Below, piece after piece: positions 43,891 through 61,510 of a DNA stretch of 64,000 bases. Below the pieces are notes generated by a model. The model made no database searches. It was not told where the DNA came from and saw only the letters and a program-made list of their open reading frames with translations. The translations under genes were made by a program, and so were the position numbers. The stretch comes from Roseovarius sp. (GTDB taxonomy: Bacteria > Pseudomonadota > Alphaproteobacteria > Rhodobacterales > Rhodobacteraceae), in assembly GCF_048262375.1 (NCBI RefSeq), contig NZ_JBLXFE010000017.1:581-64580 (forward strand), written 5' to 3'. Position 1 is the first letter of the stretch; each line of letters begins with the position of its first letter.

Positions 43891-44011
43891 CACGGCCCCT
43901 CGATACCGGTTCAAGACCGATTGCGGCAGGCAGTTTGACCGCATGCCGCAACTACAGGATAACTGTGCATCCGGTGCGCAATTCGTCCGACCAAGACACG
44001 AAAGTCCTCTC

Positions 44012-45715
44012 ATGCGTTTGATGCTGAACCTTTTCCGCGCCTATCCGATGGCCAGTTTCCTCATGGTGCTGGCCCTGTTCTTTTCGGGTTTGGCCGAGGG
44101 GCTGGGTGTTTCCGCGATGCTGCCCATGCTCAAGATCGCGCTCTATTCCGACCAGTCTGCGGCCACGGCGGAACCTCCGGGCGCGATGGAGCAGGTGGTG
44201 CTGGATGCCCTCGCTTGGGCCGGAATTCCCGCCACGCTGGGTGCTTTGCTGATATTGATCGTGGTTGCGGCTTGTTTCAAGGCGGTCTTGCTCTTGGTCG
44301 CACAGCGTCAGGTCGGCTATACCGCCGCGCAGGTCGGAACCGATCTGCGGCTGCAAATCCTGCGCAACATGATGCGCAGCCGCTGGCACTTTTTCCTGCA
44401 CCAGCCGACGGGCAAGCTGACCAACGCGCTCGCAACCGAGGCACAACGCGCGGCAGATGGCTATATGTTCGGTGCCACTGCACTCACCTTCTTCATTCAG
44501 GCGCTTGTGTATGCCTCTGTCGCCGTTTTGATATCGTGGAAGGCGACACTGCTTAGCCTGATTGGCGGGATCGTGATCATCGGACTGTCGCATTTTCTGG
44601 TGCGCATGACCCGCAAGGCGGGCAAGAAACAAACCGATCTGATGGTCTCGTTGATGTCGCATCTGACAGACACCCTGCAATCGGTCAAACCGCTCAAGGC
44701 AATGGCGCGTGAACATCTCGCGGATGAATTGCTGAAGCACGAGACCAACCGGCTGAACAAGGCGCTGCGCCGTCAGGTGCTGGCAAGTGCCGCTCTCAAT
44801 TCCGGTCAGGACCTGATGTTCGTGATGATCATCGCCTTTGGCGTTTATCTGGCCTTGGGCGTCCTCTCGATGGATTTTGCCACCGTGCTCATTCTTGCGG
44901 TGACCTTGGGGCGGGCCTACAATTTTTTAGGCAAGGTTCAAAAACAGTATCAGAAACTCGTCCAATGTGAGAGCGCCTATTGGTCGCTGAAGGAAACCAA
45001 CAGCCGCGCTGAAGCCGAACAAGAGCACCTTGGCGGGCATATAGCACCCGCGCTGAATACCGGAATATCGCTGCGCGACATCGCATTTTCCTATGACGGG
45101 CATTCGGTGTTTGCCGGTCTCGAACTAGACATTCCGGCGCATCAGATCACCACGCTGGTTGGCCCTTCGGGTTCTGGCAAAACCACGGTTATTGATCTTG
45201 TCATCGGTCTGTTGCGGCCCGGTGGCGGGGAAATCACCGTGGATGGCGTTCCGTTTGAGGAAATAGACCTTAAGGCGTGGCGGCGGATGGTGGGATATGT
45301 GCCACAAGAAACCGTGTTGCTCCACGACAGCATCCTTCACAATGTCTCGCTTGGGGACCCCAAGATTTCGACGGCGCGGGTCGAGCAAGCCTTGAAAAAG
45401 GCCGGGGCATGGGAGTTCGTGAACGATCTGCCCGAGGGCGTTCATACTGTAGTCGGAGAACGCGGCGGACGGCTATCCGGTGGACAGCGTCAAAGGGTTG
45501 CCATTGCACGCGCCTTGATCAACGAGCCGCAACTTCTGATCCTTGATGAGGCCACCAGCGCCCTCGATCCAGAGAGCGAGGCCGCAATCATCGAGACCCT
45601 GCGCGCGCTCCGCGAACACCTCACGATCCTTGCGATCACGCATAACAGTAGCCTCTCGGACGCGGCGGATATCGTGCACCGTCTTGCCCCTTCGGCGGGG
45701 ATCAGGGCTGGGTAA
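44012..45715 (+). CDS. ABC exporter half-transporter (TMD+NBD), MsbA/PglK-like lipid or glycolipid flippase
   Basis: Six-TM N-terminal half; GPSGSGKT, LSGGQRQR and LILDEATSALD. Start at ATG 44012 (MRLMLNLFRAYP). Confidence 0.88.
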   Translation: MRLMLNLFRAYPMASFLMVLALFFSGLAEGLGVSAMLPMLKIALYSDQSAATAEPPGAMEQVVLDALAWAGIPATLGALLILIVVAACFKAVLLLVAQRQVGYTAAQVGTDLRLQILRNMMRSRWHFFLHQPTGKLTNALATEAQRAADGYMFGATALTFFIQALVYASVAVLISWKATLLSLIGGIVIIGLSHFLVRMTRKAGKKQTDLMVSLMSHLTDTLQSVKPLKAMAREHLADELLKHETNRLNKALRRQVLASAALNSGQDLMFVMIIAFGVYLALGVLSMDFATVLILAVTLGRAYNFLGKVQKQYQKLVQCESAYWSLKETNSRAEAEQEHLGGHIAPALNTGISLRDIAFSYDGHSVFAGLELDIPAHQITTLVGPSGSGKTTVIDLVIGLLRPGGGEITVDGVPFEEIDLKAWRRMVGYVPQETVLLHDSILHNVSLGDPKISTARVEQALKKAGAWEFVNDLPEGVHTVVGERGGRLSGGQRQRVAIARALINEPQLLILDEATSALDPESEAAIIETLRALREHLTILAITHNSSLSDAADIVHRLAPSAGIRAG

Positions 45716-46880
45716 TCGGCTCTGAGGCCAGCGTCTGCGCGCCCTCCTCGGGCGGCGCCAACCCCATGAGCGCATTGATCCGCGCGACGGCGCGCGCCAT
45801 GTCGCTTGGCGGTGGCGTCCCTTGGGGCGCCGCCACCGGCTCTCCCAGCCAGTTCATTCTGCCCGAACGCACCAGCCTGAGATGCATCTGGCTGATATCG
45901 CGTGACAGATGTTTCCAACCCCATCGCATCAGCCCCCGGTATGCCAAGGCGCCAAGGGTCAAATCGGGCCGGTCCGTGTCCTGTCGGCGCAGGGCCTCCG
46001 CCTGTTGCGTCTCTCCGAGCGCCAACAGCGTATCGCGGCGCATGCTGAAAGAGCCCGCGCTCAGATCGAACATATGCACGGGTTTCCCGGTGGCATAGGC
46101 CTCTGACAACATCGAGATGCTGTCGGCCGTCACGATGATCTCATCGGCGAGGGCGAGAAACCCGAGATAGGGGTTATCTGGATCACCGGGTGTCCAGCGA
46201 TACAGATGCATGGGCACCTCTTGCTGCGCGGCAAAGGCGTCAATCGCTTGGTGCGGGGTTCGCGCGCTCGAGCTGACCAAGAGCGATCCACCACGCTTGC
46301 GCGCCAGATCCAGCGTATCGCGCAAGAGCCGCTGCGCCGCCCGTGAACCAAAGGCATAGGGGCCGCTTGATCCACCGATATTCACGGTCAGATAGGGCCG
46401 CGGCAGATGGGCAAGATCTTGGGCCCAGCGGGCCTTGGCCTCGGCCAGACGACGCGGTCCCAGCGGATGCAGGGGCAGGGCGTTGCGCAGAACATTCGGC
46501 CCGTCGGGGACCCGGTATTGCGGTGTGGTGATCACCAGATCGAACAGCGCTGGATCGGCCCACAGACGTCCCAGAAACACCAGCCGGGTGCGACCGCCCG
46601 ATTGATCGCGGATCCACCGGCACACAGGTTCGTTGCGCATTGCCATGGACAGCACAAGATCGGGCCATGGCGGCGCAAGCGCATCAGAGGCCGGCACATC
46701 GATGCCCCGCAGATCCTTGCCGCGCAACAGGTTGGTGCGCATCTCGAATTTGCGGTATTTGAGGGTTTTGATCTCATAGGGCCAACCCAGCCCGTCGGCC
46801 AAGGCGCGCAATTGGGTTTTCTCGCCCGATCTGTAGGCATCCACCACCCAGACACGCGGGCTCATTATTGGCTCAGACAT
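45702..46880 (-). CDS. ELM1/GtrOC1-family putative glycosyltransferase (paralog 1)
   Basis: RSGEKTQLRALADGLG, AMRNEP, ITTPQY, IGGSSG, SSSARTP, NPYLGFLALADEIIVTADSISMLSEA. Confidence 0.8.
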   Translation of the reverse strand: MSEPIMSPRVWVVDAYRSGEKTQLRALADGLGWPYEIKTLKYRKFEMRTNLLRGKDLRGIDVPASDALAPPWPDLVLSMAMRNEPVCRWIRDQSGGRTRLVFLGRLWADPALFDLVITTPQYRVPDGPNVLRNALPLHPLGPRRLAEAKARWAQDLAHLPRPYLTVNIGGSSGPYAFGSRAAQRLLRDTLDLARKRGGSLLVSSSARTPHQAIDAFAAQQEVPMHLYRWTPGDPDNPYLGFLALADEIIVTADSISMLSEAYATGKPVHMFDLSAGSFSMRRDTLLALGETQQAEALRRQDTDRPDLTLGALAYRGLMRWGWKHLSRDISQMHLRLVRSGRMNWLGEPVAAPQGTPPPSDMARAVARINALMGLAPPEEGAQTLASEPITQP

Positions 46881-48528: not shown

Positions 48529-48554
48529 GGGGGCACTCCTGATATGCGCCGAAC

Positions 48555-49523: not shown

Positions 49524-49761
49524 TGTGACTCGACTTCTTCATGTGCAGTGTGGATACTCGCCACGTTATTTGAGGCTAGGTGCTGGAATTGCAAGCAGTT
49601 TCCGTGATTTGTCCAGCCCGTGCGCCTCTGGGGTCAGGGATGGGTATGCGCCGCCACCTCAGGTTGCCGTCAGGGTGGGGCGTGGACAGTCTCATGGTAT
49701 CTGTTATCTGCCATCCGCGCATATCAAGGGCAGGATCCATTCACTGCAAGAAAGGCACTTC

Positions 49762-50913
49762 ATGTCAGTAGCAAAGTCTGATCGCAATCAGATCAGCTTG
49801 GTCGAAGCCAAGAGCGGTCAAACGATACAGGATTTCCTGCATCTGCCCGATCGCATTTACGCCAATGATCCGGCATGGATTGCGCCGCTGATGTTCGAGC
49901 AGAAAGAGCGCGTATTCAACAACAAGCCGCTGTTTGAGCATTGCGACGTCGCCTGCTGGGTGGCCTATCGGGATGGTGCGCCGGTGGGACGGATTACCGC
50001 GCAGCTTGACCAGCTTCAGCCGGAAGAGGACGGCGGCGGCAAGATCGGCTATTTCGGCATGTTCGAAGCCATTGATGACACCGCCGTATGCGACGCGCTG
50101 TTCGAGACCGCGCAAAACTGGCTGCGCACAAAAGGCGCGGCCTTTATGCGCGGGCCCTACAACCTGACGATCAACGAAGATCTCGGGCTCTTGGTCGAGA
50201 ATTTCGACGATCCCCCGTTTATCATGATGGGCCATGCGCCGCGCTATTATCAGCAGCGCTTTGAGGATCAGGGGCTGATAAAGATCAAGGATTTGCTTAC
50301 CTACAAGGTGCGCCCGGATTTTGTCGCCCCCGACGTCATGTTGAAACTGGCCGCGCGGGCCAGCCGGACGGTGACCATCCGGCCGCTCAATCCCAAGGCA
50401 AAAGCCGCCGATTTTGAGGCCATGCGTGATATCTTCAACGATGCATGGTCCGACAACTGGGGGTTTGTCCCCTTTACGCAGGCGGAATTCGCTGAAACTG
50501 CCAAGGTTCTATCTCTGCTCTTGTCCGATGATTACATTCAGTTTGCGGAAATCGACGGGCGGCCGGTGGCCTTTATCACCGCCTTCCCCAATGTCAACGA
50601 ATTGATCGGTGATCTGCGCGGTCGGCTCTTGCCGTTTGGCTGGGCGAAACTGCTCTGGCGGCTCAAGGTCAAAGGCCCCCGCAGCGCGCGCGTCGCCCTG
50701 ATGGGGGTGCGCAAGGAATACCAGAATTCGCGCCTTGGCCCGACCCTTGCCTTTCTGGTGATCGACGCCGTGCGCAAGGCCATGCAGCAAAGAAACGTCA
50801 CGTCGGTCGAGATGGGCTGGATACTAGAAGATAATCATGGCATGCGACACATCATCGAAGCAATCGGCAGCACGATCTACAAGCGCTATCGCGTTTACCA
50901 AAAACCATTGTAG
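49762..50913 (+). CDS. Bacterial ceramide synthase-like GNAT N-acyltransferase (bCerS-like)
   Basis: IYANDPAWIAPL, VGRITAQ, GYFGMFE, MRGPYNLTINE.LGLLVENFDDPPFIMMGHAPRYY, FNDAWSDNWGFVPF, MGVRKEYQ, EMGWILEDN and YKRYRVY, the pattern I recognise for this family. Start at ATG 49762. Confidence 0.82.
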   Translation: MSVAKSDRNQISLVEAKSGQTIQDFLHLPDRIYANDPAWIAPLMFEQKERVFNNKPLFEHCDVACWVAYRDGAPVGRITAQLDQLQPEEDGGGKIGYFGMFEAIDDTAVCDALFETAQNWLRTKGAAFMRGPYNLTINEDLGLLVENFDDPPFIMMGHAPRYYQQRFEDQGLIKIKDLLTYKVRPDFVAPDVMLKLAARASRTVTIRPLNPKAKAADFEAMRDIFNDAWSDNWGFVPFTQAEFAETAKVLSLLLSDDYIQFAEIDGRPVAFITAFPNVNELIGDLRGRLLPFGWAKLLWRLKVKGPRSARVALMGVRKEYQNSRLGPTLAFLVIDAVRKAMQQRNVTSVEMGWILEDNHGMRHIIEAIGSTIYKRYRVYQKPL

Positions 50914-50961: not shown

Positions 50962-51783
50962 GTGAAAGACTTTACTTCCGTAATTCTCGCTGGTGAGCGG
51001 GCAGACCGTGATGCTCTGCGTGATGAAACCGGCGTGGCCTGCAAGGCGCTGCTTGACATAGATGGAACGATCATGATCCGCCGCGTGATAAACGCGCTCG
51101 AGCAGGCCTCCTCTATTGCCTCGATCCACCTGAGCGGCCCCACCGAAGCCTGCGTCAAAAGCGATGCCGGGCTGACGGAACTCATGGCGCAGAACCGGGT
51201 GGACTGGACCGCTCCCGGTGTCTCTCCCAGCACCAGCGCGCATGAGATGCTCAGCCGGTTTCCCGCAACACAGCCGGTGTTGATCACCACCGCCGACCAT
51301 CCTTTGCTGACGGGTGAAATTGTCGATCACTTCTGCCGTGGCAGCGCCAAGAGCGGCTGTGACGTGGTGATCGGTCTGGCCCCCTATGATCTGGTCAGAG
51401 ATACCTATCCCGACCTGAAGAAAACTGTGCTTCAGTTCCGTGACGGTGGCTATTGCGGCTGCAACCTCTTCGCCTTCATGACGCAAGAAGGGCGTGGCGT
51501 GGCCGATTTCTGGCGACGTGTCGAAAAGGACCGTAAAAAGCCGCTCGTGGTGATCCGGCTCTTGGGGCTCTGGGCCTTGCTGCGCTACAGGCTTGGCTGG
51601 CTCAGTCTCGATCAGGCGCTTGCGGGCCTGTCCCGCCGCGTCGGCCTGCGCATTGGCGTCGTGATCCTGCCCTTTGCGCATGCCTCAGTGGATGTGGATT
51701 CGGTGTCTGACTATCTGCTGGTGCAACGCTACAGCAAGGAGGCGGCAGAGCGTAGCAAAGCCGAGTCCAGCCCCGCGGGCTAA
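50962..51783 (+). CDS. MobA-like NTP transferase (CpgD-like cytidylyltransferase candidate)
   Basis: VILAGER, KALLDIDG, ITTADHPLL, GCNLFAF and VDVDS. Directly follows the bCerS-like gene. Confidence 0.78.
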   Translation: MKDFTSVILAGERADRDALRDETGVACKALLDIDGTIMIRRVINALEQASSIASIHLSGPTEACVKSDAGLTELMAQNRVDWTAPGVSPSTSAHEMLSRFPATQPVLITTADHPLLTGEIVDHFCRGSAKSGCDVVIGLAPYDLVRDTYPDLKKTVLQFRDGGYCGCNLFAFMTQEGRGVADFWRRVEKDRKKPLVVIRLLGLWALLRYRLGWLSLDQALAGLSRRVGLRIGVVILPFAHASVDVDSVSDYLLVQRYSKEAAERSKAESSPAG

Positions 51784-51819
51784 GCCCTTGAGTGGGCAAG
51801 GGGCAATGACGTGCCCGGC

Positions 51820-52794
51820 TCAGCCGCCACTGTAGCCAAAGACCGGGTCAAGCACGTCCTCGACCATCCTATCAACCACGCGCAATTGCTCGGGTGTGAA
51901 ATAGTCGCGATAACCGCCGACCTTGCCGCGCCGCACTTTGAACGAGTCGGGATTGCTCTCGTCGCCCGGCTTGACCCGTTGACCGCTGGCCCGCATCCCC
52001 TCGTTTTTTGCCTCGCGTTTTTTCATATTCTCATAGGCGGCATAGTCCTTGGCCGCTTCGATATGGGCGGGGTCCGGTGTGGTGCCGGTGAATGTCACCA
52101 CTTGGCGCAGAACCTCTGCCGGATCGCTGCGCAAATCCTCATAGCGCACCACCAGCACGTCATCCCCCAACTCTGGCACTGACCGGGCCCAGACGTTGAA
52201 CGCCTCGACAATGCGCGGGATGCCGCAATCGGGATTGCACACGAAATCAAAAATATCGACCTCGGTGCCATGCGGCGGATAGGAATTCAGCGCCTTTTTC
52301 CGGGGCAACATGCGATAACGCCATTGAAAATACTGCGACACCGCGACATCGCGCGGATCACGCACCAACAGCACCAGCTTCTTGCCGCGATAATACGCAA
52401 GATTGTCCCATTGGCCGAGATAATCACGGATGTAATTGTTATGACTGAACAATACCTTCGGCGCATTTGGATTGAGCCGGTGAAAATTGTCGAACTCCAG
52501 CATATACTCGGTGTCGAGGTTGAAATGCAGCTGATAGAACCGCGACAGCATGACCCGGAACCATGTGCGTCCGCTCTTGCCCCATGACACCAGCGCCCAG
52601 TCCGCCTGTTGCAGCTTGGCATATTCCTGTTTGCCGCGCAGACGACGTTCCAGAGAGATCTTCTTGGCCTTGGGCAAGAAGAACAGAGCTGTGAGTGTCA
52701 GGTGACGCGAGGCCACCTCCCATATCTCGCGGTAGGATGTGTTGGTCATATTCAGGCAATCCAGTAAGGGATCAGGGTTTCGTGCCTTGCTCAT
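51820..52794 (-). CDS. PAPS-dependent sulfotransferase (Sulfotransfer_1 family), paralog 1
   Basis: 5'-PSB SWGKSGRTW, 3'-PB VRDPRDVAVS, RYEDL, YENMKKRE and RRGKVGGYRDYF. Start chosen at ATG 52794 by alignment with paralog 2. Confidence 0.9.
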   Translation of the reverse strand: MSKARNPDPLLDCLNMTNTSYREIWEVASRHLTLTALFFLPKAKKISLERRLRGKQEYAKLQQADWALVSWGKSGRTWFRVMLSRFYQLHFNLDTEYMLEFDNFHRLNPNAPKVLFSHNNYIRDYLGQWDNLAYYRGKKLVLLVRDPRDVAVSQYFQWRYRMLPRKKALNSYPPHGTEVDIFDFVCNPDCGIPRIVEAFNVWARSVPELGDDVLVVRYEDLRSDPAEVLRQVVTFTGTTPDPAHIEAAKDYAAYENMKKREAKNEGMRASGQRVKPGDESNPDSFKVRRGKVGGYRDYFTPEQLRVVDRMVEDVLDPVFGYSGG

Positions 52795-52866
52795 AGAGGG
52801 TATCGCTCGGTCTTTGTATGGGTAATTTTGTCCGGATGGGGTACAGGTGCCAGTCTGTGACATGGA

Positions 52867-54000
52867 ATGTGCAACATCGCGCGCAGAGAAAGGGAATCGT
52901 CGTTGGATCACAACAACGCATCGCCACATGGCAGGGTCTGGTGCCTTCTGGGGCGCAAGGCGGGTGACAATACGCAGGTGCTGGCACTGGCCGAGGCTTT
53001 GGGATGGCCGTTTGAGAGCAAGACGATCCTTGCCCGCAGCTGGGAATTGCTGCCGCATCTCGTGTTGGGGGCCACCCTCATGGGCATCAACCGGCAGACC
53101 TCCAGCGCATTGGCCCCGCCTTGGCCGGATTTGGTGATCAGCGCCGGACGCCGCAACGAACCCGTGGCACGGTGGATTCGTCAGCAATCGGGTGGCCTCA
53201 CGCGCCTTGTGCATATCGGCCGTCCTTGGGCGCCGCCTGAGTGTTATGACCTGATTGTCAGCACGCCACAGTATTTCCTGACACCGGGGCCCAAGGTGCT
53301 GATCAATCCGCTGCCCATGCACCAGTTTACCCGCGCAGGCGTGGATGCGGCTGCACAGAAGGCGTCACCCGGCCTTGCACATCTGCCGCGCCCTTTTACC
53401 ACCGTGCTGATTGGCGGCGATAGCGGCCCCTTCGTGTTTACCGCTGAAAAAGGCCGTCGTCTGGCCGAAGGCATCAACCGCCTGGTGCGCCAAACCGGTG
53501 GGACGGCTTTGGTCACCGGTAGCCCCCGCACACCTCGCGCTGTGGCAGAGGCGGTGCGCGCGACCCTCAATGTTCCCGCCGAAACCTATTGGTGGCATCA
53601 GCGCGACACCACAAACGCCAATCCCTATTCCGCCTTTCTTGGCTTGGCGGACCGGTTCGTCGTGACCGGAGAAAGCATGTCGATGCTGGCAGAGGCCGCA
53701 AGCCTTGGGCGGCCGCTCTATCTCTTTGATCCCAGCGACCCTCCGGGATGCTGGGCATGCTCTGCGCATAATTTCCGCCACAAGCCGCTCAGTCACGCCT
53801 TGGCCATGCGCTTTGCGCCGGTCCGCATGCGCCGCGACATTTCACGGATACAGAATGCGCTGGTGCAAGAGGGGCGCGCCCGCTGGATCGAGAATGCCCC
53901 TGACCTCATCGCGCAGGGGGAGACTTGGACAGAAAAAATGCGCTCCGGCCCATTGGACGGAGCGCATAAAGCGGCGGCACGGGTCCGCGCACTGTTCTAA
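52867..54000 (+). CDS. ELM1/GtrOC1-family putative glycosyltransferase (paralog 2)
   Basis: RKAGDNTQVLALAEALG, AGRRNEP, VSTPQY, IGGDSG, TGSPRTP, NPYSAFLGLADRFVVTGESMSMLAEA. TTG 52903 is an alternative start. Confidence 0.8.
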   Translation: MCNIARRERESSLDHNNASPHGRVWCLLGRKAGDNTQVLALAEALGWPFESKTILARSWELLPHLVLGATLMGINRQTSSALAPPWPDLVISAGRRNEPVARWIRQQSGGLTRLVHIGRPWAPPECYDLIVSTPQYFLTPGPKVLINPLPMHQFTRAGVDAAAQKASPGLAHLPRPFTTVLIGGDSGPFVFTAEKGRRLAEGINRLVRQTGGTALVTGSPRTPRAVAEAVRATLNVPAETYWWHQRDTTNANPYSAFLGLADRFVVTGESMSMLAEAASLGRPLYLFDPSDPPGCWACSAHNFRHKPLSHALAMRFAPVRMRRDISRIQNALVQEGRARWIENAPDLIAQGETWTEKMRSGPLDGAHKAAARVRALF

Positions 54001-54002
54001 CC

Positions 54003-54023
54003 GGCGCGGCCTTGGGCCGCGCC
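54003..54023. terminator. Bidirectional hairpin between convergent genes
   Basis: GGCGCGGCC-TTG-GGCCGCGCC. Confidence 0.6.
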
Positions 54024-54032
54024 ATATATCAC

Positions 54033-54983
54033 TCAGGCCGCGCGGGCGAGATTGCCGGTGCTCAGGGGATGCGCCGGGGCAGGGGGCAGGCTGGGCACGC
54101 GCGCCAGCACTTCAAGCGCATCGTGGCGGACATGGTTTTCTTCCATTTCCTTGCGCAGGAACTCTTCCGTGAGCTTGCCTTGCTCAACACATTCCTTGAC
54201 CAGACCCCAGAAGAAATTCTCCTGGTTCTTGTCCGGATGCTCTTTGTAATTGCCCATCAGGCCATACTCGCCGAAAATCTTGCGGCGCAAGCGTAGAATC
54301 CAAGCGGCTGGCGGGAACAGGCGGAACCGCTCTGCGGGGCGCCAATCCACCGGCAGGCCGGTTTTCCACGGCTGCGTCTTGCGGCGGGTGGTATGCAGCA
54401 TTTTGGTGTCGGTGGTGAATTTATCGAAATCATTCCATTCGGTTTCAATAAATTCGAGAGTTTCAGGGTTTTCGTCGCGCAGACCAATCCAGCGCGAATA
54501 GTCGTGATCGCCGTCGAACATGGCGTTGAATTGCTCTTCAACCTTCCAATGCTTCAACTGCGCGCAATCGAGCAGCATTACAGAGCTGGCATAGGCCTTG
54601 TCGATCAGGCCCTTGGTGCCAGAGCGCATGCGCGCCATGACGGCCTTGCCCTTCATGTCGCGGCTCAGCAATTCCCAGATGTCGGCGCAGGCAAACACGT
54701 CCGGGTCAATGACCACGGCGCGGCCTTCATAGCCCATCAGTTCGGGGGGCATAAAGCGGGTCGGGGTAAAGGATTGAAGATCCTCGTTCAGCCAGACGCG
54801 CTTGACGCCGTCGCGCATATATTCCTGACCTTCGCGGGCCATGAAGAACGGGTAATTCCGGCTGTTGACTATATGCACGTCAAATTTATCATTATTGGTA
54901 GAGTAGCGGCGCAGCGCATGTTCTGCGACAATGGCGCCGACGATCTGCTTGTGGTTCGTCTGGATGAATACTGCGTGTTTCAT
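54033..54983 (-). CDS. GT-A-fold nucleotide-diphospho-sugar transferase (GT8/CDI-like)
   Basis: SFTPTRFMPP, AVVIDPDVF (DxD), SSVMLLDC, EWNDFD and HTTRRKTQPWK. Confidence 0.72.
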   Translation of the reverse strand: MKHAVFIQTNHKQIVGAIVAEHALRRYSTNNDKFDVHIVNSRNYPFFMAREGQEYMRDGVKRVWLNEDLQSFTPTRFMPPELMGYEGRAVVIDPDVFACADIWELLSRDMKGKAVMARMRSGTKGLIDKAYASSVMLLDCAQLKHWKVEEQFNAMFDGDHDYSRWIGLRDENPETLEFIETEWNDFDKFTTDTKMLHTTRRKTQPWKTGLPVDWRPAERFRLFPPAAWILRLRRKIFGEYGLMGNYKEHPDKNQENFFWGLVKECVEQGKLTEEFLRKEMEENHVRHDALEVLARVPSLPPAPAHPLSTGNLARAA

Positions 54984-55173
54984 GGTGGGGGATCCGCAAC
55001 CTCGGTTTTTTTGTTCTGAGCGGCTCTATACAGGAGTTTTTTCTGAGACGCCATGTCCAGAAACACAATTAAAACTGTCGTGTATTGATCTGGATCAGAG
55101 ATTGGGCCGAATGCTACGCTTTTGTAACCAAAACGTGGCCTGATACGCGGGTTCCCGCCCATGCACAGGGCCT

Positions 55174-56133
55174 TTAGCGAAACACCCCGCGCCGGTAGAG
55201 ATGGCGCATGAATCCCCAGATATGGATCAGTGGACGCCGGCGGACCTTATCGGGGATTTCAACCACCTGCCCGGAATGACGCGAGAGTTTCCACGCAAGG
55301 TAATCCAGCCCGCCCTCAAAGGTGAACAGCCCCTTGATCAACCGCGCCACCGAGAGCGCCTTGCCCTGAATGCGTCGCACCGCCCATAGCGCCGGGGCCA
55401 GACGACGTGCCCAAACTCCGGCGCGGCTGTGGTAAACCAGCGTGCCGTCACGCTCTTCAATCTGCAGAACGCCACCAAGGCGCGGCAACAGTCCCCGCGT
55501 CAGAGATTCGAAAAACGCGCGCCCATGTCCCGCCAGTTCAGCGGCCCGGCCCTGCCGCTCGGCGCGCAATTCGGTGGCATAGCTCAACGCCAGCGCACCT
55601 TGCCATAAATCATCGAGCCCGCCTTCGGGGGGCAATGCCGGAACCGCGCGGCGCAAGAGGGTTTCTCCCGCCTGAAAAAATGCCGCGTGCAAACGCTGCC
55701 GGGTCGCCTCAGAGTCGCACCAGACCGGTTTGACCGGCTGTGCGAACCGCCCCCAAAGATACGAGTGAAACCAGCCGGGGCCAGTGCCGCGCTCAAATTG
55801 CGACAGGCTGAGCACCGCGTATTTGCAACGCACCGTCTGAGAACCCAGTGAAGTTTCCAGATAATAGACATTCGGCGGCAGCAACCGCCCCCCGAGACGC
55901 AGCCAAAGCCGCGGCTCGGCACGGGGTGTGCTCTCGACCAAGACATAGAAATCAACCAACCCTTCCATTAGCTCGGTGCTGCGCAGACAGGACCCATACA
56001 GAATCACGGCCTGCAATCCAGCCCCAAACCGGCATTCCAACGCGGTCATCAACGCGCGCAGCGCCGGAGAACTCTCCAGCGTGGGGCCTTCGGGGGTAGG
56101 ATATTCAGCCGGAAAGGGCTGCACGCCGGTCAT
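55174..56133 (-). CDS. Tam41/Mmp37-like nucleotidyltransferase (CDP-lipid synthase candidate; CpgC-like)
   Basis: AVILYGSC...GLVDFYVLV (Pol-beta-type NTase motif), PPNVYY, KYAV, WGRFAQP, SYATELRAE and FTFEGGLDYLAWKLSRHSG. Directly downstream of the DAGK gene. Confidence 0.7.
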   Translation of the reverse strand: MTGVQPFPAEYPTPEGPTLESSPALRALMTALECRFGAGLQAVILYGSCLRSTELMEGLVDFYVLVESTPRAEPRLWLRLGGRLLPPNVYYLETSLGSQTVRCKYAVLSLSQFERGTGPGWFHSYLWGRFAQPVKPVWCDSEATRQRLHAAFFQAGETLLRRAVPALPPEGGLDDLWQGALALSYATELRAERQGRAAELAGHGRAFFESLTRGLLPRLGGVLQIEERDGTLVYHSRAGVWARRLAPALWAVRRIQGKALSVARLIKGLFTFEGGLDYLAWKLSRHSGQVVEIPDKVRRRPLIHIWGFMRHLYRRGVFR

Positions 56134-56210
56134 GGATCAGATACGCCTCGAATGAATACTCTGCTGCCCGTGTTATATGCCCGCGCCACCGGGGCAAACA
56201 AGCGCTGCGC

Positions 56211-57197
56211 CTAGCGGGGCCGCAAGAACCGGATCGGGCCCTCTGCGGTAATCACCAGCGGAGCAGCGTCACCAGCGGTGGCGAACAGCTCGCCATCAAG
56301 ATTGATCTCGCCTTCAAAGCTCAGCGCGATGCGCTCCGCGTGAAAACTCTCATAGCCATTCTGCGCGGTCACATGCCGGTTCGGATGTCCGCGCAGGATC
56401 GACGGAAAGGCGCGGGCAAATCGCAGCGCGCCGCCCCGGATTGCGGTCACTCCGATAGGCGCATCCGCCTTGGCCCAAAACGGCCTGATCCCAAGAAACA
56501 GCCGCCCTAGCGTGCTCGCGACAAGGATCAGCATCGGGGCTTCCTCGCGTGTCACCGGCGCGTCTTTGGCCCCCTGCAAGGTCATCGCCACATGGGTGGG
56601 TTGATAAAACCGGGGGTCTTGACGGATCAGGCCCCAGACCGAACGGATCAGGATCATCCCAAGGCTGATTTCGCCGCCCAAACCCCGTGAATGCACTTCT
56701 TTATGTGCAAATTTTGTGGCCTGCATGATGGCCCCGGTGCCCAGAAACATGCCATAGCGCGCATGCCCATCGGCCGCGCCCTCAACCCGCATGATGTGGC
56801 GTTCGCGAATGTCGCCGTTCAGCGGCGCCCCCCGATCAAGCCACCTGAAAAACCGCTGCAAGGCGCGCCGATGTGTTGACGCGGTGCCAATATCACCCGC
56901 CGTCATATTGGCGGTGCCGCCGGGCAGGATGATGATCAGCGGCAGATTGTCAGCGCACCAGTGGTTGAGGATCATGCCCAACGCGGCAGCAATCGTGCCG
57001 TCCCCCCCGTTGATCGCTACCACGTCGGGCCGCATTGCGGCCAACTGCGGAACAATCTCCTCTGCCTCTTGCGGCGAGCGGGTAACATAATGGCGGACCT
57101 GAGGATAGGCTGACAACCGCGCCTCGATCCGGGCCTGCCATTTGCGGTTATTGCCGCTGGTTGGATTGCTGATCACACAGACGCGCGTCTGGCTCAT
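56211..57197 (-). CDS. Diacylglycerol/sphingosine kinase-family lipid kinase (ceramide kinase CpgB-like)
   Basis: SNPTSG, INGGDGT, LPGGTANMTA and NLDGE. Start at ATG 57197. Confidence 0.87.
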   Translation of the reverse strand: MSQTRVCVISNPTSGNNRKWQARIEARLSAYPQVRHYVTRSPQEAEEIVPQLAAMRPDVVAINGGDGTIAAALGMILNHWCADNLPLIIILPGGTANMTAGDIGTASTHRRALQRFFRWLDRGAPLNGDIRERHIMRVEGAADGHARYGMFLGTGAIMQATKFAHKEVHSRGLGGEISLGMILIRSVWGLIRQDPRFYQPTHVAMTLQGAKDAPVTREEAPMLILVASTLGRLFLGIRPFWAKADAPIGVTAIRGGALRFARAFPSILRGHPNRHVTAQNGYESFHAERIALSFEGEINLDGELFATAGDAAPLVITAEGPIRFLRPR

Positions 57198-57198: not shown

Positions 57199-58350
57199 TC
57201 AAACCCTCGACAAAAGCTGATCAATTCGGCCTAGGATGCGCGCGACGTCCTCATCCGTGGCCGACAGCGCGGGACGCGTCGTAGACGGGCGCTCCTTGTC
57301 GTCACCCATCCAACTGGCCAGACCTCGATCCACAAGAATCTGGTGAAACCGCGGGAAATGCCGGGTTTGTTGCATCAATCGCAGGTGATAGAGCCCCCGT
57401 GCAAACGCAAGGCGAAGAGACTCGGCAAGCCCCGTATTCCGGCGGGGTTGAAACATCCAAGCCGCCGCGCGGCGGCGCGCATCATCCAGCGTGCCCAGCC
57501 AGCCAAACGGCAGTGGCAAAATTTCGAGCGGTTTGCCAAGACGGGCCACCTCGACCTGCATCGAGATACTGTCGCCGGTTACAATGAACCGATCCGCCAG
57601 CGCCAAAAGACCGGTATACGGGTTCTCGCTCTCGGGTTGGCCCCAGTCAAACACCCGCAGCGCGTCGGGAAACCCTGCACAGATCCGGTTTAGAAATCCG
57701 TCAGGGGTGCGCCGTGATCCGACGACATAGGGCGTCCCGCCTGTCTCCAGGACCTGCGCAATCCGGGCGCGCAATCGCTCTTCCAACTCGGCGTTGTAGA
57801 CAAACGGGCTGGTCGGACCGCCAATCAGAAAAACCACCAATGGACGCGGCAGATCAGCCCAGGCCGCCTGCCAGTTTTTGCGCCCCGACTCGAGCCGTTC
57901 CGGGCTGATCTTCATCAGGGGCAGATCAATCTGCATCACATTCTCAAAGGGTGCGGGCAGGGTCTCGGCGCTGGTCACGATCAGATCGAATTTCGCCATC
58001 TGATGCGAAAACCACCCGGCAGGTTTGCCCACCAGCACGATCCGCGTGCGCCCGCCCGATTGCTTCTTGATCCAGAGCGCCACATTTGCCGGGCGCCGTC
58101 CCCGCGTCAGGATCAGATCCGGCCAAGGCGGCTCAATAGGATCGCTGAGGCTCAGATCGACATGATGCAGGGTCGCGCCGACGCGCGGCTTGCCATGCAC
58201 ATAGCGCGGCAGCATCTCCAGATGCCGCAATTCCGAGGTCCAGCCGCGCTGCTGCGCCAGGGCCTCGGCGACAATATCGACCTGCGCATTATCGCCACGC
58301 TTGTCACTCAGAACCCGCCAGATGCGGGGGGGGGCCTTGGGCTGGCTCAT
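57199..58350 (-). CDS. ELM1/GtrOC1-family putative glycosyltransferase (paralog 3)
   Basis: DKRGDNAQVDIVAEALA, RGRRPAN, IGGPTSP, GSRRTP, NPYTGLLALADRFIVTGDSISMQVEV. Confidence 0.8.
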   Translation of the reverse strand: MSQPKAPPRIWRVLSDKRGDNAQVDIVAEALAQQRGWTSELRHLEMLPRYVHGKPRVGATLHHVDLSLSDPIEPPWPDLILTRGRRPANVALWIKKQSGGRTRIVLVGKPAGWFSHQMAKFDLIVTSAETLPAPFENVMQIDLPLMKISPERLESGRKNWQAAWADLPRPLVVFLIGGPTSPFVYNAELEERLRARIAQVLETGGTPYVVGSRRTPDGFLNRICAGFPDALRVFDWGQPESENPYTGLLALADRFIVTGDSISMQVEVARLGKPLEILPLPFGWLGTLDDARRRAAAWMFQPRRNTGLAESLRLAFARGLYHLRLMQQTRHFPRFHQILVDRGLASWMGDDKERPSTTRPALSATDEDVARILGRIDQLLSRV

Positions 58351-59330
58351 TCTGCCGTTTTATCCGCGGATGCAGCCGGCCCATAGCCGTAGACCGGGTC
58401 CAGCCGTTCGGCCACCAGCGCGTCGATCACCTCGATCTGCGCATCCTCGAAATAATCCCGGTAGCCGCCCACCTTGGCGCGGCGCGTCTTGTAGCTGTCG
58501 GGGTTGCTCTGATCGCCGGGGGCCATGCGCGCGCCACTGAGGCGAAAACTGTTCTCGGCCTCTTTCTTTTTCATGTTTTCGAAATCGGCGTAGTTCACCG
58601 CCTCTTGAATGACGGTGGCATCGGCCGGAATATCAAGAAACCGGGCGACCTGTGTCAGGGTCTCATGCGGATTCGCGCGCATATCCTCGTAACGAATGAG
58701 GCTCAGCGCGCGCACCTTGTCGGTCTCACGCGCCCAGATGTTCATAAAGTCGATAATCTTGGGCAGCCCGCCCCCCTCGTGCAGCACAAAGTCATAGATC
58801 GAACTGTCGTCGCCATGCGGCAGGTATTCGTTCAAGAGCTTCTTCTCGGAGGGCATCCGAAAGCGCCACTGGAAAAACTGCGACACCGCCACATCGCGCG
58901 GATCGCGCATCATCAACAGCACTTTCTTGTCGTAGAAATCGACCTTGCTGTCGGTGTGGCCTGTGTAATCGCCGATATAATTGTCATGCGTAAAGAACAG
59001 CCTCGGCACCCGGCTGTCCATGTTGTGGAAATTGTCGAACCCGATCAGAATATCCTCGGGCAGGTCATAAACCTGCTGATAAAGCCGCGAAATCATCACC
59101 CGCAGCCATGTGCGCCCGCTTTTGCCAAATGAGACCACCACGGCATCGGCCCGTTGCAGGCTGGCATATTGCTCGCGCCCGCGCATCTGCCGCTCGGCGC
59201 GGATGCGTTCGGCCTGATCGGCCCCCTTCAGATCCATCTTCAACTTGAGAAGACGCCGACTGGCCTTGCGCCAGACGACCTTGCTTGCCTCAGGAAACGA
59301 CGCACGCAAAAGACGAAATGTATCGCTCAT
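58347..59330 (-). CDS. PAPS-dependent sulfotransferase (Sulfotransfer_1 family), paralog 2
   Basis: SFGKSGRTW, MRDPRDVAVS, RYEDM, FENMKKKE and RRAKVGGYRDYF. ATGA overlap with ELM1 paralog 3. Confidence 0.9.
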   Translation of the reverse strand: MSDTFRLLRASFPEASKVVWRKASRRLLKLKMDLKGADQAERIRAERQMRGREQYASLQRADAVVVSFGKSGRTWLRVMISRLYQQVYDLPEDILIGFDNFHNMDSRVPRLFFTHDNYIGDYTGHTDSKVDFYDKKVLLMMRDPRDVAVSQFFQWRFRMPSEKKLLNEYLPHGDDSSIYDFVLHEGGGLPKIIDFMNIWARETDKVRALSLIRYEDMRANPHETLTQVARFLDIPADATVIQEAVNYADFENMKKKEAENSFRLSGARMAPGDQSNPDSYKTRRAKVGGYRDYFEDAQIEVIDALVAERLDPVYGYGPAASADKTAE

Positions 59331-59545: not shown

Positions 59546-61510
59546 TCACAGCCTGTTGGACAGCGGCCCCGCCAACGCAGCCGCAATTGTTGGTCCGAAC
59601 AGATGCTCGCCGCAGGGGCTCAGATGGTCCACATCCCAGAATGTCAGACAGTCCTGCTGCACCAGCGTATCCGCGTCAAACGCCAGCGCGTCAAACAGCG
59701 AAACGTAGCGATAGGCTGACTGGTCAGCCGCCAGCGCCTTGATCTCGTCTTCCAGCAGCGAAAAGTGATCAAGCGCGACCGGGTTGAACCGCAAACGATC
59801 CGGGCTGTAGTTTTCCGGGTTGTTGAGATCCAGACGCGCCTCGGCAAATGGGCCAAGCCACACCACGTCCAACTCCTCGTGAAACTTGGCAAGATATTCC
59901 GAAGTTTTCGCGATATTGTCTTGCGCAAAGCGCGCTCTGACGCCTGTCTCGAACGCCGCATCACTGTCGCCCTCATTGCGATGATCTAGGATGTAATGCG
60001 ATCCGGAGACGTGAAAAATCACTTGAGAGATGGCGGCGCGGTGCTGTTCCAGAAACGGCACTACCGCATCATAAGAGCATTTGGCCTTGTGCTGATAGGG
60101 GCGGCACCCGCCGCGCGTGAGGCCCACAAGAAACGGCAGACGTTCGGTGCTCCGCAGCGCGTTATAGATGTTCTCGGCATGGGAATCGCCCAGCACGAAC
60201 ACCGCTGGCCCGTGTTCCGCAGCGCAGGTTTCCAGCCGACTGGTAAAGTCATCATCCAGCTCTTCGGCCCGGAACCGGCATCCATCATCCGCAACACGGG
60301 ATCTGGTGGCCTGCGGGCTGAACTGTTCGAAATTGGCGCGCGCCGCCGCATCAAGCCTGTGCTCAAGATAAAAGGCGCGGAAACCCTCGGTTTGCAGGCC
60401 TGTCAGCCCGATACCGCCCAGAATCGCCATGCAGAGCGCCGCCGCCCCAAAAAGACGGCGCGGCGCTAGATCATGCATACGCCGAAACGGTCGCTCGACA
60501 TAGCGCCAGCTCAGACAGGCGATCACAAAGGCCAACACGCAGACGCCGAACAACAGCGTCGCATCATCGCGCCCGGTTCCGATCCGGGTAAACACCAAGA
60601 GCGGCACATGCCACAGATAAAGCGAGTAGCTGACCAGTCCGACAAAGACCACCGGACGCCAGCCAAGGATCTGGCCCGCAAGGCTCTGGGGGGTGGCAAA
60701 GGCGATGATCAGAACCGCGCCCAAGCAGGGCAAAAGCGCCGCCACCCCCGGAAACGCGGTCTCGTTGTCATAGGCAAAGACCGCCGTCAGGATCATTGCC
60801 AACCCCAACAATGCGGCAAGGCGAAAGCGTCCGCTGTCGCGCAGGTCCGTGCCACGCGCGCTGGTCAGCCAATAGGCCGTGAGCGCCCCCGCCATCAGCT
60901 CCCAGAGCCGCGTGTGCAGCAGGAAAAACGCGCGCGCACCCTCGCCGCGCCCAATATGCCACTGTGCAAATCCAAGACTGACAAGCGCGAGCGCAAAAAA
61001 CAGGGCCGCCTGACCCTTTGGTCCCGCCCGCCAGCTCAGCAGCACCGCCATTGGAAAGAGCAGATAGAACTGTTCCTCGACCGAGAGGCTCCAATTGTGC
61101 AAAAGCGGCTTCAACTCGGCTGCTGTCGCGAAATATCCGCTCACCTCCAGAAAATAGGTATTCGCAAAGAACACCGTCGAGGCCGCGATACTGCCCGAAA
61201 ACTCCTTCATCGCCGAAGGATCAAGCAAGGCCCAAGCGATTGGATAACTCACCGCCATCATCACAAACAGCGCCGGAAAGATCCGGCGAATCCGACGGCC
61301 ATAGAATCCGGTCAGGGTGAAATTACCGGCCCGCCGCTCGCTCAGGATAATCGAGGTGATGAGATAGCCGGAAATGACAAAGAACACGTCTACCCCGACA
61401 AACCCACCGGGAAAGCCCGCAATCCCGGCATGGTATAGCACCACGGGCAGGATCGCGATCGCGCGCAGACCATCGACTTCGGGCCTGTATTTCATCATCG
61501 TAATGCTCAT
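59546..61510 (-). CDS. OafA-type O-acyltransferase (Acyltransferase_3 TM domain plus periplasmic SGNH domain)
   Basis: YRPEVDGLRAIA, GGFVGVDVFFVISGYLI, HNWSLSVEEQFY, SYSLYLWH; SGNH motifs LGDSHA and DVDHLS. Confidence 0.92.
   Translation of the reverse strand: MSITMMKYRPEVDGLRAIAILPVVLYHAGIAGFPGGFVGVDVFFVISGYLITSIILSERRAGNFTLTGFYGRRIRRIFPALFVMMAVSYPIAWALLDPSAMKEFSGSIAASTVFFANTYFLEVSGYFATAAELKPLLHNWSLSVEEQFYLLFPMAVLLSWRAGPKGQAALFFALALVSLGFAQWHIGRGEGARAFFLLHTRLWELMAGALTAYWLTSARGTDLRDSGRFRLAALLGLAMILTAVFAYDNETAFPGVAALLPCLGAVLIIAFATPQSLAGQILGWRPVVFVGLVSYSLYLWHVPLLVFTRIGTGRDDATLLFGVCVLAFVIACLSWRYVERPFRRMHDLAPRRLFGAAALCMAILGGIGLTGLQTEGFRAFYLEHRLDAAARANFEQFSPQATRSRVADDGCRFRAEELDDDFTSRLETCAAEHGPAVFVLGDSHAENIYNALRSTERLPFLVGLTRGGCRPYQHKAKCSYDAVVPFLEQHRAAISQVIFHVSGSHYILDHRNEGDSDAAFETGVRARFAQDNIAKTSEYLAKFHEELDVVWLGPFAEARLDLNNPENYSPDRLRFNPVALDHFSLLEDEIKALAADQSAYRYVSLFDALAFDADTLVQQDCLTFWDVDHLSPCGEHLFGPTIAAALAGPLSNRL

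What the first reader, a model, noticed from the sequence alone, without database searches (positions are those of the whole stretch)
50962..57197. Kinase, Tam41-like and MobA-like nucleotidyltransferases but no CDP-alcohol phosphotransferase: a rewired anionic head-group route
The pair DAGK (56211-57197) to Tam41-like (55174-56133) and a MobA-like NTase beside bCerS mirror my recollection of Caulobacter ceramide-phosphoglycerate genes (cpgB CCNA_01218, cpgC CCNA_01219, cpgD CCNA_01210). I see no CDP-alcohol phosphotransferase (DG..AR..G...D motif; cpgA-like) anywhere in the window. A GT-A transferase follows the Tam41-like gene instead, and ELM1 and sulfotransferase genes precede the kinase. 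Inference: CDP-activated ceramide or head group is transferred by a different enzyme class, producing a new head group.
Basis: partly seen in the sequence, partly recalled or inferred. Interest (0 to 1): 0.68.

Follow-up and report, generated by a model that had tools for sequence, protein, structure and literature searches.

The report
Sphingolipid head-group genes without CpgA
A marine Roseovarius carries the first two enzymes of the Caulobacter anionic-sphingolipid pathway and lacks CpgA, but CpgA is an optional add-on that most carriers lack; here sugar- and sulfate-adding enzymes are attached instead, in a gene cassette found mostly in bacteria that have lost lipid A genes.

Summary
No CDP-alcohol phosphotransferase lies in the window. 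The whole assembly has only three, best read as PgsA, PssA and Pcs.

- The MobA-like nucleotidyltransferase is not CpgD. It is the CC_1153/CCNA_01211 type, which sits directly downstream of bCerS in 24 of 24 strong hits and occurs in 28 of 28 tested genomes that lack cpgA.
- In Caulobacter, CpgA adds only the second phosphoglycerate.
- Of 31 alphaproteobacterial genomes with CpgC, 12 have cpgA, and the same 12 have cpgD. The other 19, this one included, have neither. No missing transferase needs explaining.

What is unusual is the cassette cpgB–cpgC–GT8-like transferase–ELM1–sulfotransferase.
- Its CpgC forms a separate clade (100/100 support), and the Roseovarius copies nest among gammaproteobacterial ones.
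- The cassette's marker gene, the GT8-like transferase, was found at 536 or more places in public genomes, and 0 of 18 carriers have cpgA.
- LpxC and LpxB are both absent from all 7 Roseovarius carriers and from 7 of 14 gammaproteobacterial carriers.

Most likely the route is ceramide to ceramide-1-phosphate to a CpgC product, which is then glycosylated and sulfated. The product is unknown. I class this as a new variant of a known kind.

The parts
38586..42874 (+). Ceramide core: acyl-ACP synthetase (38586-40445), CerR-type reductase (40442-41404), small ACP (about 41394-41660) and serine palmitoyltransferase (41657-42874)
   Evidence: Pfam AMP-binding, Epimerase and Aminotran_1_2. ACP reading frame seen. 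42-53% identical to the same genes in 20 alphaproteobacterial loci.
42913..43890 (+). Metallophosphoesterase of the CC_1158 type
   Evidence: NCBIfam phosphoesterase matches. 37-45% identical to the phosphoesterase beside cpgA/cpgB in alphaproteobacterial loci. Lies next to spt or the NTase in gammaproteobacteria.
43943..45715 (+). MsbA-like ABC exporter
   Evidence: Pfam ABC_membrane plus ABC_tran.
45702..46880 (-). ELM1-family (PF06258) protein a
   Evidence: Pfam E 1.1e-56.
49762..50913 (+). bCerS (GNAT). The likely start is the ATG at 49762, not the 467-aa ORF start at 49510
   Evidence: Pfam GNAT. 39-46% identical to bCerS of other loci. The relative's gene is called at 383 aa. Internal ATG found.
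50962..51783 (+). CC_1153/CCNA_01211-type MobA-like nucleotidyltransferase. It is not CpgD
51820..52749 (-). PAPS-type sulfotransferase 1 (309 aa). The 500-aa ORF listed for this frame is too long
   Evidence: Pfam Sulfotransfer_1 E 8.9e-24. The relative's gene is 309 aa. ATG start. GKSGRTW and RDPRDVAVS motifs.
52867..54000 (+). ELM1-family protein b, divergent from the GT8-like gene
   Evidence: Pfam E 7.8e-60. A neighbour of the GT8-like gene in 76 of 80 loci.
54033..54983 (-). GT8-like GT-A glycosyltransferase ('p316')
   Evidence: Invariant DPD at 93-95 and LHTTRRKTQPWK at 196-207.
55174..56133 (-). CpgC-like protein with a Tam41 fold
56211..57197 (-). CpgB-like ceramide kinase
   Evidence: Pfam DAGK_cat. 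GGDG motif and no transmembrane segment. Adjacent to cpgC in 17 of 20 alphaproteobacterial loci and within 10 kb of the GT8-like gene in 69 of 80 cassette loci.
57199..58350 (-). ELM1-family protein c, ending 1 nt before the kinase start
   Evidence: Pfam E 7.1e-46. Spacing.
58347..59330 (-). PAPS-type sulfotransferase 2, overlapping ELM1c by 4 nt
   Evidence: Pfam E 1.2e-25. Motifs. Overlap.
59546..61510 (-). AT3 plus SGNH O-acyltransferase
   Evidence: Pfam Acyl_transf_3 plus SGNH. Conserved in Roseovarius relatives.

Best explanation
This is the head-group half of a horizontally acquired sphingolipid island. It is a variant of the Caulobacter ceramide-phosphoglycerate (CPG) system that works without CpgA and CpgD.

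Shown here:
- The genes and their families.
- The genome-wide absence of cpgA and cpgD.
- The strict cpgA-cpgD co-occurrence elsewhere.
- The fixed bCerS-NTase gene pair.
- The separate CpgC clade.
- The conserved cassette and its link with absence of lpxC and lpxB.

Inferred by orthology:
- CpgB phosphorylates ceramide to ceramide-1-phosphate.
- The Tam41-fold CpgC converts that into the first phosphodiester head group. This is CPG in Caulobacter, possibly via a CDP-ceramide intermediate.

Inferred from context:
- The soluble GT8-like transferase and three ELM1-type GT-B enzymes add sugars on the cytoplasmic face.
- Two PAPS sulfotransferases supply negative charge in place of the second phosphoglycerate.
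- The AT3-SGNH enzyme O-acylates the product, and the MsbA-like pump exports it.
- The CC_1153-type NTase makes an NDP-activated small phospho-compound. Its consumer is unknown, but it cannot be a CpgA-type enzyme.
- The finished lipid probably takes over the role of lipid A in the outer membrane.
For: Gene identities.

No cpgA or cpgD:
- PF01066 finds only PgsA/PssA/Pcs-like genes.
- tblastn with CpgA and CpgD references finds nothing.
- A CpgA profile finds 0 true hits in this genome and in 18 cassette genomes, at most 48 bits against 430-640 bits for real CpgA.

cpgA and cpgD occur in the same 12 of 31 CpgC genomes.

Published genetics: cpgB and cpgC suffice for CPG, and cpgA and cpgD are needed only for CPG2.

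NTase: found in 28 of 28 genomes lacking cpgA, and directly after bCerS in 24 of 24 strong hits.

Cassette: in 80 loci holding the GT8-like gene, cpgC is present in 71, cpgB in 69, ELM1 in 76 and a sulfotransferase in 71. None holds a CDP-alcohol motif ORF.

Operon coupling: sulfoT-ELM1-cpgB are spaced by -4 and +1 nt.

CpgC clade: 100/100 support with a stem of 1.5 changes per site. Family-invariant residues (G47 S48 D61 R102 K104 E188 R190 E192 K282 H286) are kept in both clades.

Sulfotransferase motifs are intact and an APS kinase gene is present.

LpxC and LpxB are both absent in exactly the island-bearing Roseovarius genomes (7 of 7, against LpxC present in all 13 genus genomes without this island type; LpxB was checked in 4 of those 13 and is present) and in 7 of 14 gammaproteobacterial carriers.
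Against: - No lipid has been measured, so the product and the order of steps are inference.
- CpgC's reaction is unknown even in Caulobacter.
- The long stem of the cassette's CpgC clade could mean a changed substrate.
- In Caulobacter, CC_1153 is genetically tied to the CPG2 step, which does not exist here, so its role in this lineage is unexplained.
- Seven gammaproteobacterial carriers keep lpxC and lpxB, so the cassette does not require loss of lipid A.
- The GT8 and ELM1 enzymes could act on a non-sphingolipid acceptor.
- The assembly is 93% complete.
Confidence: 0.6

Rival explanations
1. A CDP-activated ceramide or head-group precursor, made by the Tam41-like enzyme or the MobA-like NTase, is transferred by a non-CDP-alcohol-phosphotransferase enzyme such as the GT8-like or an ELM1 GT-B protein. 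That enzyme functionally replaces CpgA and makes a new phosphodiester head group.
For: - The NTase is kept in 19 of 19 cassette genomes that have no CpgA, so its activated product needs some other consumer.
- The GT8-like gene is a near-obligate neighbour of cpgC in this clade (71 of 80 loci).
- From my own knowledge: GT-B enzymes such as TagF transfer polyol phosphates from CDP donors.
Against: - CpgA is not needed for the first head group.
- The NTase is not CpgD. It also occurs in alphaproteobacteria that have neither cpgA, nor GT8, nor ELM1 within 10 kb of cpgC, for example G091, G158, G027 and G207, so its consumer is not specific to this cassette.
- The GT8-like/ELM1 pair coexists with cpgA in G034 and G036.
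- GT8 enzymes are sugar transferases.
Confidence: 0.15
2. Plain CPG only. CpgB and CpgC make ordinary ceramide phosphoglycerate, as predicted for Zymomonas. The glycosyl- and sulfotransferases decorate some other envelope polymer.
For: - The cpgB+cpgC-only state is common (19 of 31 genomes).
- Z. mobilis lacks CC_1159 and is predicted to make only CPG.
Against: - The sulfotransferase and ELM1 genes are translationally coupled to cpgB.
- The cassette travels as one unit across two proteobacterial classes.
- These Roseovarius genomes lack lpxC and lpxB, so there is no LOS core to decorate.
Confidence: 0.15
3. Housekeeping moonlighting. CpgC makes CDP-ceramide, and the genome's PgsA, PssA or Pcs converts it to ceramide phosphoglycerol, phosphoserine or phosphocholine.
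For: - These are the only three CDP-alcohol phosphotransferases in the genome.
- CpgC has the Tam41 (CDP-DAG synthase) fold.
Against: - There is no linkage to the island.
- This does not explain the conserved glycosyl/sulfo cassette.
- It is untested.
Confidence: 0.05
4. Assembly artefact. cpgA and cpgD exist in the unassembled 7% of the genome.
For: Completeness is 93% over 59 contigs.
Against: - 0 of 18 other cassette genomes have CpgA, including four named Roseovarius and complete chromosomes.
- The relatives' islands have the same gene order and end at the same RTX gene.
Confidence: 0.03

Closest known systems
Caulobacter crescentus CPG/CPG2 pathway (CpgA-D; CC_1152-CC_1161 / CCNA_01210-01219)
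   Same: It has the ceramide core (aasR, cerR, acpR, spt, bCerS), the CpgB-type kinase, the Tam41-like CpgC, the CC_1153-type NTase right after bCerS and the CC_1158-type phosphoesterase.
   Different: - It has no CpgA (CDP-alcohol phosphotransferase), no CpgD (CTP:phosphoglycerate cytidylyltransferase) and no LptF2/G2 in the island.
- It adds a GT8-like transferase, three ELM1 proteins, two sulfotransferases, two LpxL-like acyltransferases, an AT3-SGNH enzyme and an MsbA-like pump.
- Its CpgC is at most 43% identical to alphaproteobacterial CpgC and falls in a separate clade.
Zymomonas mobilis and other cpgB+cpgC-only proteobacteria (predicted to make CPG only; Olea-Ozuna 2024)
   Same: They lack CC_1159 (cpgA) while keeping cpgB and cpgC.
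   Different: They have no GT8-like/ELM1/sulfotransferase cassette attached. No loss of lipid A genes is reported for them in the papers read here.
Sphingomonas glycosphingolipids that replace LPS
   Same: A ceramide-anchored glycolipid in a bacterium without lipid A genes.
   Different: From my own knowledge: the Sphingomonas lipid is ceramide with glucuronic acid attached directly, with no kinase or Tam41-like step and no sulfotransferases.
Tam41/Mmp37 mitochondrial CDP-diacylglycerol synthase (PDB 6IG2/6IG4, 7ECD)
   Same: Full-length fold match (TM 0.50-0.58) and a profile-level sequence match.
   Different: The window protein is below the Pfam cut-off. The likely substrate is ceramide-1-phosphate, not phosphatidate. 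The reaction has never been assayed.
Acinetobacter baumannii outer-core locus GtrOC proteins of the Mito_fiss_Elm1 family
   Same: Proteins of the same Pfam family are annotated as lipooligosaccharide core glycosyltransferases.
   Different: Their acceptor is the lipid A core. Here lipid A genes are absent and the neighbouring genes are sphingolipid enzymes.

Membership tests
Caulobacter-type CPG2 pathway | CpgB: soluble DAGK/LCB5-type ceramide kinase with a GGDG motif, encoded next to cpgC | tested here: met
   Pfam DAGK_cat E 2.4e-15. GGDG at residue 73 and no transmembrane segment. Adjacent to cpgC. Defining features taken from the CpgB paper. Kinase activity was not assayed.
Caulobacter-type CPG2 pathway | CpgC: Tam41-like protein required to convert ceramide-1-phosphate to CPG | tested here: met
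   Homology to CpgC-position genes in 20 loci (30-42% identity). Tam41 match by profile and by fold. The function itself is not testable here.
Caulobacter-type CPG2 pathway | CpgA: a CDP-alcohol phosphotransferase (PF01066) of about 380 aa that adds the second phosphoglycerate | tested here: not met
   The genome has only PgsA/PssA/Pcs-like PF01066 genes. No tblastn hit. No hit to the CpgA profile.
Caulobacter-type CPG2 pathway | CpgD: CTP:phosphoglycerate cytidylyltransferase (PF00483/PF12804) | tested here: not met
   No hit in the genome at E 1e-15 or better. tblastn finds only a 53-aa fragment match. The window NTase is unrelated to a CpgD reference (E 7.2).
Caulobacter-type CPG2 pathway | CC_1153-type MobA/CofC-like NTase directly after bCerS | tested here: met
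   (adjacent in 24 of 24 strong hits).
Caulobacter-type CPG2 pathway | The product is ceramide (di)phosphoglycerate | not testable with these tools
   This needs lipidomics.
Tam41/Mmp37 (PF09139) | Pfam gathering score | tested here: not met
   16.8 bits against a cut-off of 24 for the window protein. 8 of 21 family members match, with a best E of 2e-8.
Tam41/Mmp37 (PF09139) | Tam41 fold over the full length | tested here: met
   Foldseek 6IG4 E 9e-10 with TM 0.50/0.56, and 7ECD E 1e-7 with TM 0.51/0.58. The next-best matches are ANT(4') enzymes at TM about 0.3.
GT8 retaining glycosyltransferases (GT-A) | GT-A fold most similar to LgtC, glycogenin and the LARGE1 xylosyltransferase domain | tested here: met
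   Foldseek E 5e-9 to 1e-5, TM 0.35-0.53, from a model with pLDDT 77.
GT8 retaining glycosyltransferases (GT-A) | DxD metal/nucleotide motif and the C-terminal H...KPW-like motif | tested here: inconclusive
   D93-P-D95, H197 and QPWK are invariant. Their equivalence to the GT8 motifs was not checked by superposition.
GT8 retaining glycosyltransferases (GT-A) | Pfam PF01501 gathering score | tested here: not met
   No Pfam hit for the window protein. A 47%-identical homolog hits at E 0.008, below the cut-off.
PAPS-dependent sulfotransferases (PF00685) | Domain match plus the 5'-PSB and 3'-PB loops | tested here: met
   E 8.9e-24 and 1.2e-25. GKSGRTW and RDPRDVAVS are present in both. An APS kinase gene is in the genome.

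The most novel reading that the evidence does not exclude
Roseovarius, Halieaceae and related marine bacteria build a ceramide-anchored counterpart of lipooligosaccharide. CpgB and CpgC make a ceramide-phosphate anchor. A GT8-like enzyme (perhaps glycosylating a glycerate or phosphate-linked unit) and ELM1 enzymes add an inner core. Sulfation makes it anionic. This lipid has allowed repeated, independent loss of the lipid A pathway. The universal bCerS-linked NTase would be the true donor-activating enzyme of the first head-group step, which Caulobacter genetics may have masked through partial redundancy with CpgD.
Probability: 0.35. Interest if true: 0.85.

Novelty: new variant of a known kind. 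Interest (0 to 1): 0.6.

Why it matters
- It separates what is core from what is optional in bacterial phosphosphingolipid synthesis. Core: cpgB, cpgC and the bCerS-linked NTase. Optional: cpgA plus cpgD.
- It corrects a gene assignment that is easy to get wrong, CC_1153 versus CpgD.
- It points to culturable strains, such as Roseovarius mucosus DSM 17069, Roseovarius sp. 217 and Halioglobus sp. Uisw_031. In these, an undescribed sulfated, glycosylated ceramide lipid and natural absence of lipid A genes can be tested directly.
- That bears on how Gram-negative outer membranes can be built without LPS.

Tried and rejected
- Is the NTase CpgD? Rejected.
- Is one of the genome's PF01066 genes a cpgA? 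Rejected. They are housekeeping types of 221-249 aa. True CpgA proteins are about 380 aa and score over 430 bits on their own profile.
- Does cpgA lie beyond the window? Rejected. The contig ends 0.9 kb further on, relatives have an RTX gene there, and the genome-wide searches are negative.
- A phylum-wide sample of 400 genomes for the GT8-like gene gave only one further hit. It was uninformative, and I replaced it with the genome-contig scan.
- PDB sequence searches for the GT8-like protein and the ELM1 proteins found nothing useful.
- APS kinase does not track the island. It is found in 19 of the 20 genus genomes checked, and the one without it is only 73% complete.
- Promoter and terminator scans were near background and I did not use them.
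- Literature searches found no paper on sphingolipids or lipid A loss in Roseovarius or Halioglobus.

Full report
**What is in the window**

The window is contig C17:581-64580 of a 4.13-Mb, 59-contig assembly (93% complete). The contig is 65,468 bases long. Named homologs place the genome in Roseovarius.

Genes from 38.6 to 62.4 kb form one sphingolipid island:
- aasR, cerR, acp and spt (38586-42874)
- a CC_1158-type metallophosphoesterase (42913-43890)
- an MsbA-like exporter (43943-45715)
- ELM1a (45702-46880)
- LpxL-like, fatty-acid hydroxylase and LpxL-like genes (46873-49523)
- bCerS (49762-50913)
- a MobA-like NTase (50962-51783)
- sulfotransferase 1 (51820-52749)
- ELM1b (52867-54000)
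- a 316-aa protein with no Pfam match (54033-54983)
- a Tam41-like protein (55174-56133)
- a DAGK-type kinase (56211-57197)
- ELM1c (57199-58350)
- sulfotransferase 2 (58347-59330)
- an AT3-SGNH acyltransferase (59546-61510)

Genes upstream of 38 kb are unrelated housekeeping genes. In relatives the island ends at an RTX protein, which corresponds to the open frame at 62438-64000.

- The kinase has the GGDG ATP motif and no membrane segment, like CpgB.
- The Tam41 assignment is weak by Pfam for this protein alone (16.8 bits against a cut-off of 24). It is firm at family level:
  - A profile of 21 homologs hits only Tam41 among solved structures (6IG2, E 6e-4).
  - 8 of 21 members hit PF09139.
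  - An AlphaFold model (pLDDT 85.8, pTM 0.85) matches Tam41 over its full length: 6IG4 at E 9e-10 and TM 0.50/0.56, and 7ECD at E 1e-7. The next-best matches are far behind.
  - Its model (pLDDT 77, pTM 0.82) matches GT8-type transferases such as LARGE1, WbbM, GlyE, LgtC and glycogenin (E 5e-9 to 1e-5).
  - It carries an invariant DPD and an LHTT...QPWK stretch.
- No CDP-alcohol phosphotransferase lies in the window. A six-frame PF01066 search of the whole genome finds three genes on other contigs. Their best NCBIfam models are PgsA, PssA and Pcs.

**What the literature says about the Caulobacter genes**

- CpgB (CCNA_01218) is a ceramide kinase.
- CpgC (CCNA_01219/CC_1161) carries a Tam41 signature. 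It is needed to turn ceramide-1-phosphate into CPG.
- CpgA (CCNA_01217/CC_1159) has a PgsA domain and is needed only for CPG to CPG2. ΔcpgA keeps CPG, and CC_1160 alone restores CPG in a ΔCC_1159/1160 mutant.
- CpgD (CCNA_01210/CC_1152) makes CDP-glycerate, proposed to be CpgA's donor.
- CC_1153 (CCNA_01211) is a separate MobA/CofC-like NTase next to bCerS. CC_1158 is a calcineurin-like phosphoesterase.
- Z. mobilis lacks CC_1159 and is predicted to make only CPG.

**The NTase is CC_1153-type, not CpgD**

I fetched 20-kb regions around CpgC homologs in 20 alphaproteobacterial genomes.
- The common order in these loci is aasR-cerR-spt / cpgC-cpgB-(cpgA)-phosphoesterase / hydroxylase-bCerS-NTase.
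- One locus (L047) has every part, including a 256-aa PF12804+PF00483 protein that fits CpgD and a 390-aa PF01066-motif protein that fits CpgA.
- The window NTase is 34% identical over 256 residues (E 1e-48) to that locus's bCerS-adjacent NTase. It has no detectable similarity to that locus's CpgD (E 7.2).
- tblastn of CpgA and CpgD references against this genome finds only PssA and a 53-residue fragment.
- The NTase family's nearest solved relative is the uncharacterised TTHA0179 (2DPW, E 1e-37). IspD, TarI, CobY and KdsB-type cytidylyl/guanylyl-transferases follow.

**cpgA and cpgD are an optional module**

- Of 301 alphaproteobacterial genomes sampled, 31 have CpgC.
- A CpgA-specific profile finds true CpgA (430-640 bits) in 12 of those 31.
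- CpgD (E 1e-58 or better) is found in exactly the same 12.
- The other 19, this genome included, have neither. This fits the published CpgD-to-CpgA donor relation. Lacking both is the majority state, not a gap that needs a substitute enzyme.
- On the CpgC tree, presence or absence of cpgA is scattered (7 changes).
- The CC_1153-type NTase is present in 28 of 28 tested genomes that lack cpgA. It lies directly downstream of bCerS in all 24 strong hits. It belongs to the conserved core, independent of CpgA and CpgD.

**What is distinctive here**

- The window's CpgC is 48-85% identical to Roseovarius and gammaproteobacterial homologs, but at most 43% identical to alphaproteobacterial ones.
- The GT8-like protein is 69-95% identical across the 120 best database hits, which include Halieaceae, Porticoccaceae, Chromatiales and Thiohalobacter. 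It matched at 536 or more places in the species-genome collection.
- In the 80 best loci (±10 kb), cpgC is present in 71, cpgB in 69, an ELM1 in 76 and a sulfotransferase in 71. None has a CDP-alcohol motif ORF, a cpgA or a cpgD.
- Genome-wide, 0 of 18 cassette carriers have CpgA.
- CpgC proteins linked to the GT8-like gene form one clade (100/100, stem of 1.5 changes per site). The Roseovarius copies nest among gammaproteobacterial ones, which indicates horizontal transfer.
- Thiohalobacter thiocyanaticus shares almost the whole Roseovarius gene order.
- Residues invariant across the whole CpgC family are kept in both clades, so the same type of chemistry is likely.
- Two alphaproteobacteria (G034, G036) have the GT8-like gene as well as cpgA. 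The GT8-like enzyme is therefore an addition rather than a replacement for CpgA.

**Link with lipid A loss**

- In the genus, LpxC is missing from exactly the three genomes that carry this island type (G000, G307, G309). It is present in the 13 that do not. Two of those 13 have a distant, 36%-identical CpgC.
- Four further island-bearing Roseovarius (mucosus DSM 17069, sp. 217, ramblicola, autotrophicus) also lack LpxC. So do 7 of 14 gammaproteobacterial carriers, including the complete Halioglobus sp. Uisw_031 genome.
- LpxB shows the identical pattern of presence and absence in the 25 genomes checked for it: the 21 carriers and four genus genomes without this island type.
- I found no paper on this in the library.

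**Mechanism**

- The head-group enzymes all lack membrane segments, so assembly is on the cytoplasmic face.
- The order sulfotransferase 2, ELM1c, kinase is translationally coupled (-4 and +1 nt). CpgC follows after 77 nt and the GT8-like gene after 190 nt.
- The sulfotransferases have intact PAPS loops, and the genome has an APS kinase gene.
- Most likely route: ceramide to ceramide-1-phosphate (CpgB), then to the CpgC product, then glycosylation, sulfation and O-acylation, then export.
- The first step rests on orthology to an assayed enzyme. The rest is inference from family and context.
- ELM1-family proteins are annotated as LOS-core glycosyltransferases in Acinetobacter. No solved relative was found.

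**Earlier notes and limits**

- Other AI notes in this scan describe the same cassette in Halieaceae and Porticoccus genomes. They agree with this reading, but they are not independent evidence.
- The verdict on the product is a prediction.

Noticed in passing
whole genome; genus and cassette genomes (G000, G307, G309, G698-G715): LpxC and LpxB are both absent from all 7 Roseovarius genomes with this island type and from 7 of 14 gammaproteobacterial carriers, including a complete Halioglobus genome. LpxC is present in the 13 Roseovarius genomes without this island type, and LpxB in the 4 of those that were checked.
   Followed up: partly
L115 (Thiohalobacter thiocyanaticus Hrh1), 1-20933: This gammaproteobacterium shares nearly the whole Roseovarius gene order, from sulfotransferase through cpgB-cpgC-GT8 to NTase-bCerS-LpxL-hydroxylase-LpxL-ELM1-ABC. 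That points to transfer of the entire island between classes. This carrier keeps LpxC and LpxB.
   Followed up: partly
L040:3527-4909, L042:2775-3986, L045:16126-17337, L050:1961-3127: A second, uncharacterised PF01066 paralog (388-460 aa, about 200 bits on the CpgA profile) sits next to the hydroxylase and bCerS genes in several alphaproteobacterial loci that also have cpgA.
   Followed up: no
window 51820-53322 and 49510-50913: Two mechanical ORFs are too long. The sulfotransferase starts at the ATG at 52749 (309 aa). The 500-aa frame runs antisense into ELM1b. bCerS most likely starts at the ATG at 49762 (about 384 aa), as in relatives.
   Followed up: yes
L122, L117, L132, L137 (Halieaceae loci): Gammaproteobacterial cassettes carry two or three extra paralogs of the GT8-like protein and more sulfotransferases than Roseovarius. 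They also have a Wzy_C-type ligase/polymerase and a GT2 gene (L055, L056). This suggests a longer glycan there.
   Followed up: no
table (G124, G278, G213, G036, G244) and (G263): Several CpgD and CpgA matches in alphaproteobacteria are reported with one in-frame stop. This may only be read-through at gene ends, but it was not examined.
   Followed up: no
L121: One cassette-bearing contig is labelled as a Bacteroidia MAG, but its CpgC nests inside Halieaceae sequences. This is probably a binning error.
   Followed up: no
window 62438-64000: The open frame at the right end corresponds to a roughly 970-aa RTX (HemolysinCabind) protein in relatives. It marks the island's border.
   Followed up: partly
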